50,359 nt of DNA, taken from the NCBI GenBank assembly GCA_003648765.1, contig QMPV01000004.1:1-50359 (forward strand), written 5' to 3'. The notes under the pieces are model-generated. The model had not been told where the DNA came from and ran no database searches. It worked only from the letters and a program-made list of their open reading frames with translations. Below, piece by piece: positions 1,618-27,019 of the stretch. Each line of letters starts with the position of its first letter. Position 1 is the stretch's first letter. Both the position numbers and the translations under genes were made by a program. The DNA is from Candidatus Aminicenantes bacterium. GTDB taxonomy: Bacteria; Acidobacteriota; Aminicenantia; Aminicenantales; Aminicenantaceae.

Positions 1618-2043
1618 CAATTGAGGATAAGCCCTGTTCTGCCTCTCTTTAAGGAGCTAGATTCTAAATTGGTCAATTGGAGTTGGGTCTTCCCCTCTCA
1701 TAAATCTTGTTTGGGAGTTGAGAAATTTGACTTCAAATCTTCATTTTTCCAGTTTGTTTAGACATGGCCCTCTGGATAAGGTCAGAAGGATTAAACTGAC
1801 TCAGGCCTTCACCCTTCACCTTTGGATAACATGGCTTTTTGTCATTTATCTCTTGGCCTCATCTAGAAATTCCTTTCTCTTACTAATCTACTGCCCTAGC
1901 CCAATAGAGATAATGGAAAGTTTTAGACCAGCTTGCCTGTAATTTTTTCTGTGAGAGGGCTGGCCTTTTGGTTAAAATTGAGAAATGAGAATTTGAGTCT
2001 AATTTTCAACAACTTTTGAATTTTTTAGTCAATCTTAGCCTCA

Positions 2044-2196
2044 TCTATTCATAAATTAAAAAATTTGATCCTAGAACAGCCAAAAATCTTAGGGGGTGAT
2101 TGGTCCAATCTTTTTTGGTTGTTCCCTCTCTCTTTTTTTTCTAACGTATTATATATCAATACGTTATGAAGGAAAAGATCTTTTTTTATGAATTAT
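2044..2196. repeat. Dispersed ~155-bp structured repeat, copy 1
   Basis: Aligns to the reverse complement of 26805-26961 with about 18 differences in 157 columns, including a 20-bp identical block AGAACAGCCAAAAATCTTAG. Confidence 0.9.
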
Positions 2197-2249
2197 CCAA
2201 GTTAGATGTTTATTAGTGGCGAAAGCTAAAACAATGAGCAGGAATTAAA

Positions 2250-18865: not shown

Positions 18866-21295
18866 TCAATCTTCTTTAACTTTAGCTAAGGAAACAACAC
18901 GGTCTCCGTTTTCTAGCTGGATGATTCGGACCCCCATGGTCGCCCGACTCAGAGGACGGAGGTTAACTGTTTTAATGCGAATCACCTTGCCTTGTTCCGT
19001 GACTAATATTACATCTTCTCCATCTACACCTACTACCCCCACGGCCGGACCATTTTTCTTGGATATTTTCAGATTAATCACACCTTTGCCCCCCCGGCGA
19101 TGGCAGGGATAATTCTCAATAGGCGTTTTTTTGCCGTAGCCTTTTTCAGCAATGGTGAAAATATACTTTTCCTCTTCACCAACAATAACCAGGCCAATTA
19201 TTTGGTCATTTTTAGCCAAAGTGATAGCCTTGACCCCCGCCGCGTTCCGACCCATGGGTCGAACCTCCTTTTCGTGGAAACGGATAGCTTTGCCTTGACG
19301 GGTAGCGATAAGGATGTCTTTCTGGCCATCAGTAAGTTTGGCGGCTAGAACTTCACTCCCTCGGGGAAGATTAATGGCAATGATGCCACCTCGGCGGATA
19401 TGTCGAAAATCGTAAAGACAGGTCTTCTTAATTAAGCCGGTTGAAGTGAGCATAACGACATATTTATCTCGCGAAAATTCCTTAACCCCTATCACTGAGC
19501 TGACTTTTTCATCTTGTTCCAGAGGAACCAGGTTTTTAATAGATTTGCCCCGGCCGGAGACACCCACATCGGGAATATCCAAAGCTTTTAACCAATATAA
19601 TTTTCCTTTGTTGGTAATAATAAGCAGATAGCTATGAGTAGAGCAGATGAAGACATTTTCTACTACATCTTCGGGTTTCATACTGATTCCCCGCCGTCCT
19701 TTACCACCTCTTAATTGGAACTGATAATAGCTTAGGGAAGTTCTCTTCATGTAGCCAGAAGCCGTATAAGTAACTACAACTTCTTCCTCTTTAATTAAAT
19801 CTTCGGGTTTCAGTTCCGTGATTTCTTCAGTAATAATTTCTGTTCTTCTTTCATCGGCATATTCTTCTTTGATTTTCTCTAATTCCTCAATTATGATGTC
19901 GAGAATCATTTTTTCACTGCCGAGAATCTTTTTCAGATGGGCAATTAATTTCTTCAGTTCAGCATATTCTTCTTTGATTTTATTTCTTTCCAGTCGGGTT
20001 AATCGTTGAAGTTGCATTTCTAATATGGCCTGAGCTTGAGTGTGAGTCAGGTGGAAGCGGGTAATCAAGCCGTTGCGGGCTTGTTCGACAGTCCGGGAAG
20101 AGCGGATAAGAGCAATTATTTCGTCTAAGTGGTCTAAGGCAATAATTAATCCTTCGAGAATGTGAGCTCTCAACTCGGCTTTTTTCAAGTCATAGCGTGT
20201 TCTCCGCCGGATAACGTCTTGACGATGGGAAATAAAATAACGGAGCATGTCGATAAGGCTCATCACTTTGGGTTGGCGGTCAACAATAGCCAGGAGGATA
20301 ATACCAAAGGATGTCTGAAGAGCCGTGTATTTATATAAGTTATTCAGAATAATTTCTGGCAATTCTCCTTTTTTTACTTCAATCACCACCCGCATCCCTT
20401 CGCGATCTGACTCATCTCTGATATCAGCAATGCCTTCAATCCGCTTTTGGTTGACCAATTCGGCGATATTTTCTAGCAGCCTGGCCTTATTTACTTGATA
20501 AGGAATTTCTGTGATCACCACTCGGTCACGGTCATTTCCACGGCCTCTTTCAATCGTGGCCCGGGCCCGGAGAATTATCGTACCTTTACCCGTTTGGTAA
20601 GCCTGTCGGAGACCATCAAGGCCAAAAATATAACCACCAGTGGGGAAATCTGGACCGGGAATAAATTCCATGATTTCTTTCAGGGTGGCTTCCGGGTGTC
20701 TAATGAGATGGATGACCGCATCAATAACTTCTCCCAGATTATGAGGAGGGATGTTGGTGGCCATCCCTACAGCTATACCCGAAGCCCCATTGATGAGAAG
20801 ATTGGGTATTTTGGCCGGCAGAACTTCAGGAACGGTCAAGCTACCGTCGTAATTAGGGACAAAATTAACGGTGTCCTTTTCAATATCGGCTAACAGTTCA
20901 TGAGCTATTTTGCTCATGCGGACTTCGGTATAGCGCATAGCCGCTGGGGGATCGCCATCTACGGACCCAAAGTTTCCCTGTCCATCAACTAGAGGGTAGC
21001 GCATACTGAAGTCCTGGGCCATCCGGACCAGAGCATCATAGACAGCGGCTTCTCCGTGAGGATGATATTTACCGATGACATCACCCACAATCCGGGCGGA
21101 TTTCTTGTAGGGTTTATTCCAGGCGTTGCCAGCTTCATACATGGCATAGAGCGTTCGGCGATGGACTGGCTTTAAACCGTCTTTAATGTCAGGAATAGCC
21201 CGGCCGATGATGACGCTCATCGCGTAATCAAGATAGGACCGCTTCATTTCTTCTTCTAAGCTGACCTCAATTGTCCGTGTAGTTGGCTCCATCAT
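18866..21295 (-). CDS. gyrA: DNA gyrase subunit A
   Basis: [33 protein letters not shown]; GyrA-box QLRGGKG. Confidence 0.98.
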
Positions 21296-26191: not shown

Positions 26192-26266
26192 CGGGGCGTA
26201 GCGCAGTCTGGTTAGCGCACAGCGTTCGGGACGCTGGGGTCATGGGTTCGAATCCCATCGCCCCGA
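26192..26266 (+). tRNA. tRNA-Pro(CGG)
   Basis: CGGGGCG/CGCCCCG acceptor, CAGCG-TTCGGGA-CGCTG anticodon arm, GGTTCGAATCC. CCA not encoded. Confidence 0.95.
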
Positions 26267-26804
26267 TTTTTATTTTGCTCAGAAATTATGGCGAAAAGTC
26301 AGGGCTTGGCTCAATCCTCAAGAAGAAAGTCTTAATGGTTCTGGATTGATGGAGGTCCAGAAATAGAGAAAAGCTAGATTTTTCCAAAAAAGATTTAGAA
26401 TGGCAGGCGGCAGCTATAGCCAGATATTAATTTCAGGCTAAGGGGGTCGGCTTTCCTCCTTTCACCTTGGACTTTGAGGAAGGCCTGAGAAAGGAAAAAT
26501 TCTTTGGTTGGCTGGTTCAAAATTTCCCCTTTTTGCTGTCTTCTTTGAGACTCTCCTGGGCTATTACAAAAGGCTGGCTAGGGAAAAGAGTTTTTTAACT
26601 AGACTGACTAACAAATGGAAGAAAATTTTATTTTTCAAACGTAAAAGCCAGCCCCCAATTCAACCACCCCAAGGTAGCTATTATTATGAGGGGTTCTATA
26701 TTACCAAAGTTAAGCTGCTCAGTCTTGGCCTTCCTAACTTGCCCTCTACCCAGTTCAACTTCAAAGGTGAGGGGGTGGCCAGGACAATAGATGTTTCAGC
26801 CTGA

Positions 26805-26961
26805 ATAATTCATAAAAAAAGCTGTTTTTCCCTTCATAACATATTTATATATAATATGTTAGAAAAAGAAGAGAGAAAAAAACAACCAGAAAAGATTGGA
26901 CCAATCATCCGCTAAGATTTTTGGCTGTTCTTGGATCAATATTTTTTAATTTGTGAATAGA
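26805..26961. repeat. Dispersed ~155-bp structured repeat, copy 2 (inverted)
   Basis: Reverse complement aligns to 2044-2196. Confidence 0.9.
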
Positions 26962-27019
26962 CCAGGTTAGAAATTCATTCCTCCAAAAAAATAAAATTAT
27001 CTGGTAAGTTGTAGATTTA

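What the first reader, a model, noticed from the sequence alone, without database searches (positions are those of the whole stretch)
2044..2196. Structured ~155-bp dispersed element with nested palindromes, covariation and an IHF-consensus site (copy 1)
Seen: ~88% identical to the reverse complement of 26805-26961. It has terminal inverted repeats ATTCATAAA (2047-2055)/TTTATGAAT (2185-2193), a 13-bp imperfect stem (2074-2086/2112-2124) enclosing the palindrome GATTGG-T-CCAATC (2098-2110), and TAACGTATT-N7-AATACGTTA (2142-2166). In copy 2 the last one reads TAACATATT-N7-AATATGTTA, a double compensatory change. TATCAATACGTTA (2154-2166) matches the IHF consensus WATCAANNNNTTR and follows a T-tract. 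Both copies lie between convergent transcription units, about 55 bp from a stop codon. Inference: either a lineage-specific analogue of E. coli IHF-binding RIP/BIME-1 elements, a MITE, an orphan CRISPR-leader-like or recombination site, or a structured ncRNA. G-U wobbles point to different strands, which favours a DNA-level function.
Basis: partly seen in the sequence, partly recalled or inferred. Interest (0 to 1): 0.75.

Follow-up and report, generated by a model that had tools for sequence, protein, structure and literature searches.

The report
Miniature transposon derived from IS1380
This is one of about fifty copies of a small, gene-less transposon left over from an IS1380-type insertion sequence in an uncultured sediment bacterium; its palindromes are inherited transposon parts, so it is an ordinary kind of element.

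Summary
The two ~88% identical copies are real, but they belong to a family with 50 profile hits in this 2.77-Mb genome (30 full length). True ends lie further out than reported: copy 1 is 2039-2201 and copy 2 is 26800-26966. The ends are 17-bp imperfect terminal inverted repeats. Exact 4-5 bp target-site duplications flank 23 of 28 copies here and 14 of 16 in a congener.

A 1626-bp IS with the same termini and an intact IS1380-family transposase sits in that congener. The element is this IS with its middle deleted, so it is a MITE.

Each palindrome is inherited: the terminal repeats; the transposase leader, with a -10-like hexamer and an RBS-pairing stem that covaries across 14 IS relatives; and the deletion junction.

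The "compensatory change" is not covariation. Uncompensated A·C occurs in 9 copies and compensated A·T in 2, and both sites are fast-mutating CpGs. The IHF match occurs in only 5 of 14 IS relatives. REP/BIME, CRISPR-leader and ncRNA readings fail their tests.

Verdict: a new member of a known kind, of modest interest. Side points are near-identical copies in two species with ~73% identical orthologous DNA, and a TTAA-biased target.

The parts
2039..2201 (+). MITE copy 1, 163 bp (163-bp subfamily), written in 'MITE orientation'. The parent transposase would read on the minus strand, from 2201 towards 2039.
   Evidence: Ends defined by an alignment of 28 copies with flanks and located in the window. 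nhmmer hit C4:2041-2199.
2035..2038 (.). Target-site duplication TTAG, left copy
   Evidence: Exact 4-bp repeat of 2202-2205.
2202..2205 (.). Target-site duplication TTAG, right copy
2039..2055 (+). Left terminal inverted repeat. It reads CCTCATCTATTCATAAA here; the family consensus is CCTGGTCTATTCATAAA. It corresponds to the IS end downstream of the transposase stop codon.
2185..2201 (+). Right terminal inverted repeat, TTTATGAATTATCCAAG. It corresponds to the IS end upstream of the transposase gene.
2039..2103 (+). Segment derived from the first ~65-75 bp of the IS (the end beyond the transposase stop codon). It includes GAACAGCCAAAAA (2074-2086).
   Evidence: Local alignments of MITE copies to the IS ends of G001, G007 and L075.
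2098..2110 (.). Central palindrome GATTGG-T-CCAATC, straddling the internal-deletion junction. The left half comes from the IS left end (...GTGAATGG) and the right half from transposase codons 3-7 (TACAATC).
   Evidence: alignments. The junction lies in an imperfect direct repeat, so the exact breakpoint cannot be resolved.
2104..2201 (-). Segment derived from the last ~100 bp of the IS: the terminal repeat, the leader, the Shine-Dalgarno region and the first codons of the transposase gene.
   Evidence: 86% identity over 104 bp to the G001 IS and 84% over 103 bp to the G007 IS.
2114..2126 (-). Decayed transposase start codon and Shine-Dalgarno region. The IS has GGAAACAGCCATG; this copy has GGGAACAACCAAA, so the ATG is lost.
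   Evidence: sequence.
2142..2166 (-). Palindrome TAACGTATT-N7-AATACGTTA, inherited unchanged from the IS leader. Its loop carries TATAAT on the transposase strand (2148-2153). The IHF-consensus match 2154-2166 lies in it on the plus strand.
   Evidence: Invariant in 5 of 5 close IS relatives. A -10-like hexamer sits at the same distance from the IS end in 13 of 14 relatives, and the IHF motif is in 5 of 14.
2171..2184 (-). Decayed 'box' just inside the terminal repeat. The IS has AAAAAAAGCTGTTTCC; this copy has AAAAGATCTTTTCC. In the IS it pairs with the Shine-Dalgarno region.
26800..26966 (-). MITE copy 2, 167 bp, an older and more diverged member of the 163-bp subfamily.
26796..26799 (.). 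Degenerate target-site duplication of copy 2. In element orientation it reads CTGA, against CTAA at 26967-26970 (3 of 4 match).
26967..26970 (.). The other half of the degenerate target-site duplication of copy 2 (CTAA in element orientation).

Best explanation
The element is a MITE: a gene-less internal-deletion derivative of an IS1380-family insertion sequence. About 65-75 bp of one IS end is joined to about 100 bp of the other end.

Mechanism, in three steps:
1. It carries both 17-bp terminal inverted repeats, which are the sites an IS transposase binds and cuts.
2. It can therefore be moved only by a transposase supplied in trans by a full-length IS.
3. It inserts into AT-rich intergenic DNA (TTAA, TTAG and similar) and duplicates 4-5 bp.

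The shared ends, the target duplications, the parent IS and a nested insertion are shown. Actual trans-mobilisation is inferred.

The internal palindromes are inherited cis-elements of the IS, not a host device:
- The TAACGTATT-N7-AATACGTTA hairpin and the pairing around it are the transposase leader.
- In the IS, a box beside the terminal repeat pairs with the Shine-Dalgarno region, and a -10-like hexamer sits in the apical loop.
- My reading is that transcripts entering from outside fold and hide the ribosome site, while transcripts started inside lack the 5' arm. This logic is recalled from IS10 and IS50; here it is inferred, with about 55% confidence.

In this genome the copies look like decaying relics. 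No intact transposase was found, and substitutions are spread almost evenly, with CpG sites hit hardest.
For: Copy number:
- 48 blastn hits and 50 nhmmer hits in G000. 30 are full length and 12 are cut by contig ends.

Ends and target duplications:
- 17-bp terminal inverted repeats.
- Exact 4-5 bp target duplications in 23 of 28 internal full-length copies, against 9% in mismatched-flank controls.
- 14 of 16 copies in congener G001, against 20% in controls.

Parent IS:
- G001:C187 holds a 1626-bp element with termini CCTGAATAATTCATAAA and CCTGATTTATTCATAAA. It has one 446-aa ORF.
- The ORF scores 399 bits on NF033539 'IS1380 family transposase' (cut-off 180). It matches PF13701 at E 5e-157.
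- A 1628-bp copy sits in G007.
- MITE positions 59-161 are 84-86% identical to the IS's last ~104 bp. Positions 1-58 match its first 58 bp.

Intermediates:
- An ~810-bp decayed element in G019 has a PF13701 remnant.
- A split copy in G000 (C17:19099-19156 and 19348-19457) flanks a 35-residue PF13701 remnant.

Mobility:
- In G001:C249 a 163-bp copy flanked by TTGA/TTGA sits inside an older element, which is itself flanked by CTAA/CTAA.

Leader hairpin:
- In 14 IS relatives, RNAalifold finds the 8-bp box/RBS stem, and 3 of its pairs keep pairing through changes on both sides.
- All 14 fold individually with the box paired to the RBS.
- A -10-like hexamer sits at a fixed position in 13 of 14.

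Copy age:
- Median identity to the consensus is 0.939 in G000 (n=19) and 0.963 in G001 (n=9), Mann-Whitney p 0.027. G001 is the genome with the intact transposase.
Against: - No intact transposase was found in G000, only a remnant below cut-off. Mobilisation in this genome is therefore not shown. However, the assembly is 92% complete in 288 contigs, and IS copies often fail to assemble.
- No empty-site allele was seen. In 4 of 4 public runs (contigs only) at least one junction of copy 1 is occupied, and no contig skips the element.
- The G001 IS itself has no clean target duplication (flanks TTAAA / TTTAT).
- The consensus promoter scan finds no two-hexamer sigma-70 promoter and no terminator inside the element. 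The promoter therefore rests on a lone conserved -10-like hexamer.
- The terminal repeats and palindrome arms carry somewhat fewer substitutions than the rest (0.028-0.036 against 0.061 per site; nominal p 0.04-0.24). This could reflect weak constraint. Some of the counted differences are shared by descent.
Confidence: 0.93

Rival explanations
1. An exapted host element. The copies, or some of them, now serve the host as binding sites for an IHF/HU-type protein, or as regulatory or RNA-stabilising hairpins at gene ends, like E. coli RIP/BIME-1 (recalled).
For: - The IHF core consensus is kept in 38 of 44 copies.
- Three HU/IHF-fold genes exist in G000, and their best NCBIfam matches are IHF alpha/beta models.
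- No copy lies inside a long ORF: 0 of 20 classifiable copies.
- The fold is stable.
- One compensated variant of the central palindrome exists: GATGGG/CCCATC in 2 related copies.
Against: - The motif is simply part of the inherited palindrome, and it is missing from 9 of 14 IS relatives.
- It occurs 312 times genome-wide, or 1 per 8.9 kb, against 175 expected from composition.
- All three HU/IHF hits are below the curated cut-offs, for example 92.6 against 111 bits.
- Substitutions are spread nearly evenly: stem arms 0.044 and central palindrome 0.042, against 0.048 overall.
- Uncompensated changes outnumber compensated ones, 9 to 2.
- Orientation and gene context match the background.
- The element was not found in congener G002.
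Confidence: 0.05
2. A structured non-coding RNA gene present in many copies.
For: The fold z-scores are -2.9 to -4.0.
Against: - No Rfam family reaches its gathering score. The best weak hits are at E 0.73 and 0.95, at 18-19 bits against a gathering score of 50.
- Wobble and mismatch patterns conflict between strands.
- There is no covariation within the family.
- No two-hexamer promoter or terminator was found.
- Orientation relative to neighbouring genes is random (from the rows).
Confidence: 0.02
3. A REP/BIME-type element spread by a RAYT (Y1) transposase, an orphan CRISPR leader, or a site-specific recombination site.
For: - One PF01797 (Y1 transposase) gene exists, at C185:3434-3763.
- The element is palindromic and intergenic.
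Against: - Terminal inverted repeats, 4-5 bp target duplications and a DDE-type parent IS are not REP features.
- No copy lies on contig C185.
- No tandem array with period 45-95 and at least 2.8 copies exists anywhere in the assembly.
Confidence: 0.01
4. A neutral, decaying two-copy duplication.
For: None after the census.
Against: - 50 hits in G000.
- At least 20 copies fetched from G001, 16 of them full length.
- Target duplications at unrelated sites.
Confidence: 0

Closest known systems
Bacterial MITEs, that is IS-derived miniature inverted-repeat transposable elements. Examples are the eight MaeMITE families of Microcystis aeruginosa NIES-843 (PMC2779907, passages seen). A general definition is in PMC9330008 (passage seen).
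   Same: - Under 600 bp with no ORF.
- Terminal inverted repeats and target duplications.
- Tens of dispersed intergenic copies.
- Dependence on a transposase supplied in trans.
   Different: - Here the parent is identified, and it belongs to the IS1380 family.
- My two searches ('IS1380' + 'MITE', 21 papers; 'IS1380 family' + 'miniature inverted', 3 papers) listed no paper whose title or abstract start describes an IS1380-derived MITE. In the 5 papers whose passages I read, IS1380 and MITEs are mentioned separately.
- That library is incomplete, and ISfinder was not searchable.
IS1380-family insertion sequences: IS1247 (1672 bp, IR 16/13, DR 5; PMC3281130 Table 2), ISEcp1 and ISPme1 (PMC9330008), ISMae30 (1991 bp).
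   Same: - The parent IS has a single transposase ORF over the NF033539 cut-off.
- It is 1626 bp long, with short imperfect terminal repeats starting CC.
- Its derivatives make 4-5 bp duplications.
   Different: - The item in the window has no transposase.
- Its transposase is only about 40-43% identical to those in cultured proteobacteria.
- Outward promoters and one-ended mobilisation, as described for ISEcp1 and ISPme1, were not tested here.
IS10 / IS50 protection against read-through activation, by hiding the ribosome site in a fold-back structure.
   Same: A 5' arm lies upstream of the element's own presumed start site and pairs with the Shine-Dalgarno region. The pairing is conserved, with compensatory changes.
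   Different: It is a different IS family, with no experimental data here. In the MITE the stem is decayed and there is no gene left to control.
E. coli RIP/BIME-1 IHF-binding repeats.
   Same: An intergenic repeat with palindromes and a match to the IHF core consensus.
   Different: RIP/BIME are mosaics of short REP units without terminal inverted repeats or target duplications. This element has both, plus a DDE IS parent. The IHF match is not conserved in the IS lineage.
Eukaryotic piggyBac transposons. IS1380 transposases are used as their prokaryotic outgroup, and TTAA is their conserved target (PMC10813416, passages seen).
   Same: A 4-bp duplication with TTAA as the commonest target: 7 of 14 duplications in G001, and 5 of 23 in G000 contain TTAA.
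   Different: The target is not strict (TTAG, CTAG, TAAT, ATTA and GGAA are also used), and 5-bp duplications occur.

Membership tests
MITE (non-autonomous IS derivative) | Small size, with no transposase gene | tested here: met
   157-175 bp in 28 copies. The former start codon is lost in copy 1.
MITE (non-autonomous IS derivative) | Terminal inverted repeats | tested here: met
   17 bp, with 14 of 17 complementary in the consensus.
MITE (non-autonomous IS derivative) | Target-site duplication of fixed length at unrelated sites | tested here: met
   23 of 28 copies in G000, against 9% in controls. 14 of 16 in G001, against 20% in controls.
MITE (non-autonomous IS derivative) | Many dispersed copies | tested here: met
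   50 nhmmer hits on 40 contigs of G000. Summed word depth is 60-120 times that of the flanks in 4 runs.
MITE (non-autonomous IS derivative) | A full-length IS with the same ends and matching subterminal sequence | tested here: met
   The G001:C187 IS (1626 bp) and the G007:C26 IS (1628 bp). Neither is in G000 itself.
MITE (non-autonomous IS derivative) | Evidence of movement (filled versus empty site) | tested here: inconclusive
   A nested insertion with a TTGA duplication in G001:C249 supports movement. No empty allele of copy 1 was seen in 4 runs of contigs. The copy-2 interval is ~505 bp shorter in G002, but it is too diverged to align base by base.
IS1380 family (for the parent IS) | Transposase matching the family model over its curated cut-off | tested here: met
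   NF033539 at 399 bits against a cut-off of 180. PF13701 at 521.9 bits.
IS1380 family (for the parent IS) | Single ORF, about 1.55-2.0 kb, 4-5 bp duplication, ends starting CC (the family table is recalled; IS1247 values from PMC3281130) | tested here: met
   1626 bp with one 446-aa ORF. The ends start CCTG. 4-5 bp duplications are seen in the derivatives and in relatives L080, L082 and L083 (read by eye).
REP/BIME (RAYT-dependent) repeats | Short REP palindromes without terminal inverted repeats or target duplications, linked to a Y1 (RAYT) gene | tested here: not met
   Terminal repeats and duplications are present. The single PF01797 gene is on C185, which holds no copy.
IHF-binding site | Binding by IHF; conservation of the core motif where function is kept | tested here: inconclusive
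   The motif is in 38 of 44 copies but in only 5 of 14 IS relatives. The host has HU/IHF-fold genes below the IHF cut-offs. Binding cannot be tested with these tools.
CRISPR leader | Abuts a repeat-spacer array | tested here: not met
   TRF found 0 arrays with period 45-95 and at least 2.8 copies in the whole assembly.
Known ncRNA family (Rfam 15) | Match at or above the gathering score | tested here: not met
   The best match is 18.7 bits against 50.

The most novel reading that the evidence does not exclude
Two linked claims.
1. This clade of IS1380 elements carries a conserved fold-back leader that keeps the transposase silent in read-through transcripts.
2. The MITE, which retains the -10-bearing hairpin but no gene, acts as a portable promoter or antisense source, or as an RNA-end hairpin. 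It would have been scattered through Aminicenantes genomes by a recent horizontal arrival.

The arrival is suggested by copies up to 96% identical in two species, while the one orthologous coding stretch aligned between them is ~73% identical.
Probability: 0.2. Interest if true: 0.45.

Novelty: new member of a known kind. Interest (0 to 1): 0.25.

Why it matters
- For annotation: about fifty such copies break this assembly. 12 of the 50 hits sit at contig ends. They would otherwise be reported again and again as 'structured conserved intergenic elements'.
- For transposon biology: this is a clean, fully traceable example of how a MITE arises from an IS1380-family element. The deletion junction, intermediate forms, subfamilies and a nested insertion are all visible. 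I did not find such an element described in my literature searches.
- For IS regulation: it exposes a leader hairpin with compensatory changes across IS relatives from several phyla. That is a testable regulatory device for a family best known for ISEcp1.
- For ecology: near-identical copies in two deeply diverged uncultured sediment species hint at recent exchange of mobile DNA in that habitat.

Tried and rejected
- An IS4/IS5-type parent: PF01609 in G000 gave only a sub-threshold hit, unrelated to the element.
- Looking for the parent inside G000 by terminal-repeat matches. This led instead to a second, unrelated repeat family inserted into copies, and to two ~240-bp single-copy elements with related ends.
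- Empty-site comparison with congeners. Coding DNA is only 68-75% identical, so intergenic DNA could not be aligned base by base.
- Public runs. No RNA holder was listed. Only contigs were available, with no joint across the element.
- Consensus promoter and terminator scan: nothing inside the element.
- A literature search for the IS-family review table did not return the review itself. The family ranges are therefore recalled.
- 'Aminicenantes' + 'transposase' returned 10 papers, none on this element by title or abstract start.
- No structure prediction, complex prediction or large protein-database search was needed.

Full report
OBSERVATION

The two stretches are there and align at about 88% identity. 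The sequence folds better than dinucleotide shuffles. As DNA the plus strand gives -22.3 kcal/mol, z -3.99, with 0 of 200 shuffles as good. As RNA the minus strand gives -35.6 kcal/mol, z -2.89, with 3 of 200 as good.

Two corrections are needed. The homology between copies extends further out, and there are far more than two copies.

CENSUS

The window is contig C4 of a 2.77-Mb assembly (288 contigs, 92% complete).
- blastn finds 48 matches.
- A profile built from 33 near-full-length matches finds 50.
- Of the 50, 30 are full length, 12 are cut off by contig ends, and 8 are internal fragments or halves of split copies.
- The repeat evidently breaks the assembly.

ENDS AND TARGET DUPLICATIONS

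I aligned the 28 full-length copies that have 40 bp of flank; 2 of the 30 were dropped for lying at contig ends. Similarity starts at CCTGGTCTATTCATAAA and stops at TTTATGAATTATCCAGG.

Immediately outside it, 23 of 28 copies have an exact direct repeat: 4 bp in 16 copies and 5 bp in 7. Pairing each left flank with other copies' right flanks gives a repeat of 4 bp or more in 9% of cases.
- Copy 1 is 2039-2201, flanked by TTAG/TTAG.
- Copy 2 is 26800-26966, with a decayed CTAA/CTGA.
- In the congener G001, 14 of 16 full-length copies show the same thing at different sites, against 20% in controls. The control is higher there because TTAA is so common a target.

PARENT

Only the right ~100 bp of the element matches DNA in other genera of the family. 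One such locus, in G019, has the two ends ~650 bp apart. Between them lies a broken reading frame that hits PF13701, the IS1380-type DDE domain, at E 1.7e-8.

Searching PF13701 in 61 genomes of the family gave hits in 34, with 24 over the cut-off.
- The best is an intact frame in same-genus G001 (C187:2794-4062, E 5e-157). It lies directly beside a match to MITE positions 58-160.
- That IS is 1626 bp, with termini CCTGAATAATTCATAAA and CCTGATTTATTCATAAA and one 446-aa ORF.
- The ORF scores 399 bits on NCBIfam NF033539 'IS1380 family transposase', against a cut-off of 180.
- G007 has a 1628-bp copy with one in-frame TAG.

MITE positions 59-161 are 84-86% identical to the last ~104 bp of these ISs. 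Positions 1-58, or up to ~75 against relative L075, match the first part. So the MITE is the IS minus ~1.46 kb.

The junction falls in a short imperfect direct repeat (...AACATGTGAATGG in the left end...AGCAATTGTTTGG at transposase codons 1-5). The exact breakpoint cannot be resolved.

G000 itself has only a 35-residue remnant (22.9 bits, below cut-off) at C17:19230-19334. It lies between the two halves of a split copy, which is a longer deletion derivative.

WHAT THE PALINDROMES ARE

1. ATTCATAAA/TTTATGAAT is the inner part of the terminal repeats.

2. TAACGTATT-N7-AATACGTTA lies, in the IS, between the terminal repeat and the ribosome site of the transposase gene.
   - It is invariant in 5 of 5 IS copies whose transposases are 80-100% identical, although the adjacent bases differ.
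   - On the transposase strand its loop reads TATAAT.

3. Across 14 IS relatives (transposases about 50-100% identical, from bins of several phyla), a box next to the terminal repeat (AGCTGTTTC...) is complementary to the Shine-Dalgarno region (...GAAACAGC[C/T]ATG).
   - RNAalifold predicts this 8-bp stem.
   - 3 of its pairs are kept through changes on both sides. For example, two Latescibacterota copies have GGTAGTTTCC...GGAAACTACC.
   - All 14 fold individually with the box paired to the ribosome site. Their interiors are self-complementary even though the sequences differ.
   - A -10-like hexamer sits ~49 nt from the IS end in 13 of 14.

4. The deletion brought the two together.

5. GATTGG-T-CCAATC straddles the deletion junction.

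LIKELY WORKING OF THE LEADER (INFERENCE)

Transcripts that enter from outside the IS contain both arms and hide the ribosome site. Transcripts that start after the -10-like hexamer lack the 5' arm. This is the logic described for IS10 and IS50, which I recall and did not look up.

Against it, the consensus scan finds no two-hexamer promoter in the element, and there is no expression data.

COVARIATION AND CONSTRAINT IN THE MITE COPIES

- The double change is no more frequent than expected from the two single changes.
- Both positions are CpG.
- In the 163-bp subfamily (28 copies from both genomes), CpG positions differ from the consensus at 13.3%, against 4.8% overall (p 1.6e-5).

Substitution rates per site:
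- Left terminal repeat 0.028.
- Right terminal repeat 0.036.
- Palindrome arms 0.030.
- 13-bp stem 0.044.
- Central palindrome 0.042.
- Everything else 0.061.

This is at most weak sparing of the ends and the leader palindrome. Some differences are shared by descent, so the tests are generous.

IHF

- The motif is kept in 38 of 44 copies. It is simply part of the inherited palindrome.
- It is present in the 5 closest IS relatives and absent in the other 9.
- It occurs 312 times genome-wide, against 175 expected.
- The genome has three HU/IHF-fold genes. Their best models are IHF alpha/beta, but all are below cut-off.

Binding is untested.

OTHER RIVALS

- Rfam gives only three tRNAs in the window at gathering score. 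Two chance-level hits (E 0.73 and 0.95) overlap or adjoin the element.
- No CRISPR-like array exists in the assembly.
- One Y1-transposase gene exists, on a contig without copies.

CONTEXT

Using crude gene calls (ORFs of at least 100 aa, 85% coding), 0 of 20 classifiable copies lie in an ORF; 10 more had no ORF on one side.
- 13 lie between tandem genes, 4 between convergent genes and 3 between divergent genes.
- Background gaps number 677, 144 and 208 respectively.
- From the same rows, the former transposase direction points sense to the next gene in 9 copies and antisense in 11.

So the convergent setting of copy 1 is not a rule.

DISTRIBUTION AND AGE

Full-length copies were found only in G000 and G001 among 96 genomes of the family. 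Nine others carry only the IS-end part, and the third congener G002 (93% complete) has none.

Both subfamilies (163 bp, and ~172 bp, the latter closer to the IS and still carrying the CATGG of the start codon) occur in both genomes. Copies cluster largely by genome.

G001 has the intact transposase, and its copies are closer to the consensus: median 0.963 (n=9) against 0.939 (n=19) in G000, p 0.027. A G001 copy sits inside another element with its own TTGA duplication, which is direct evidence of transposition.

Copies in the two genomes reach 95.8-96% identity.
- The one coding stretch aligned between G000 and G001 is 73% identical.
- Two stretches aligned with G002 are 68% and 75% identical.
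- This suggests recent horizontal arrival of the source element. It rests on very few loci.

A contig carrying the identical transposase is titled Candidatus Aminicenantes bacterium. An earlier scan note calls this genome an uncultured Aminicenantes bacterium.

PUBLIC RUNS

Twenty runs from 19 studies hold the stretch; none is on record as RNA. I laid four (contigs only). Each shows at least one flank contig running 30 bp or more into copy 1.
- Left junction: X2, X12, X20.
- Right junction: X2, X13, X20.
- No contig skips the element.
- Summed word depth inside it is 60-120 times that of the flanks.

LITERATURE

- IS1247 (IS1380 family) is 1672 bp, with IR 16/13 and DR 5 (PMC3281130 Table 2, passages).
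- ISEcp1 and ISPme1 carry outward promoters and mobilise adjacent DNA (PMC9330008, passages).
- The same review defines MITEs as elements without a transposase that depend on one supplied in trans (PMC9330008).
- piggyBac studies use IS1380 transposases as an outgroup and note the TTAA target (PMC10813416, passages).
- Two searches listed no paper describing an IS1380-derived MITE by title or abstract start. I read passages of five papers.
- The family-wide ranges (1.55-2.0 kb, 4-5 bp duplication, ends CC) are recalled from ISfinder-based reviews that I could not retrieve.

VERDICT

This is a MITE of the IS1380 family, a new member of a known kind. The 'structure' is inherited transposon anatomy. 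The covariation and the IHF-site reading are not supported. Interest is modest.

The points worth keeping are the conserved, covarying leader hairpin of this IS clade, the traceable birth of the MITE, and the cross-species near-identity.

Noticed in passing
G000 contigs, e.g. C61:2408-2662 and C17:13296-13545; also C115:1-100 and C235:1-130: A second, unrelated dispersed repeat of ~250 bp gives about 26 half-length matches at 92-98% identity. Some copies are inserted into the A-run just inside the left end of the IS1380-MITE. It was not characterised.
   Followed up: partly
G000 C13:11454-11695 and C91:4632-4869: Two ~240-bp single-copy elements have termini like the MITE's (CCTGGATTATTCATAAATTA ... 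TGAATAATYCAGG) but unrelated interiors. They may be other non-autonomous passengers of the same transposase.
   Followed up: partly
MITE copies of G000 and G001 (e.g. window 2145-2146 and 2162-2163): CpG positions in the copies differ from the consensus 2.8 times as often as the average site (13.3% against 4.8%, p 1.6e-5). This would fit cytosine methylation and deamination in this lineage.
   Followed up: no
L074, L075, L076 (genome contigs): A 99% identical transposase sits on a 2-kb contig binned as an Aenigmatarchaeota archaeon. Transposases 80-86% identical sit on IS-length contigs (1627 and 1629 bp) binned as Desulfobacter. This is either mis-binning of IS contigs or real transfer.
   Followed up: no
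L085-L096 (one Latescibacterota chromosome): Twelve copies of an IS relative, 53-54% identical at the protein level, lie in one genome. Their box/RBS stem carries fully compensated changes relative to the Aminicenantes IS.
   Followed up: partly
window 26192-26266 to 27020, compared with G002:C14:54993-55381: The interval between the tRNA and the Fe-S protein gene is 766 bp here and 261 bp in congener G002. Besides the 167-bp MITE, another ~340 bp is extra in this genome, including an unassigned 98-aa ORF at 26508-26804.
   Followed up: no
window 1718-1942: A 74-aa ORF between the cation/proton-exchanger-like gene and copy 1 has no NCBIfam match. It may not be a gene.
   Followed up: no
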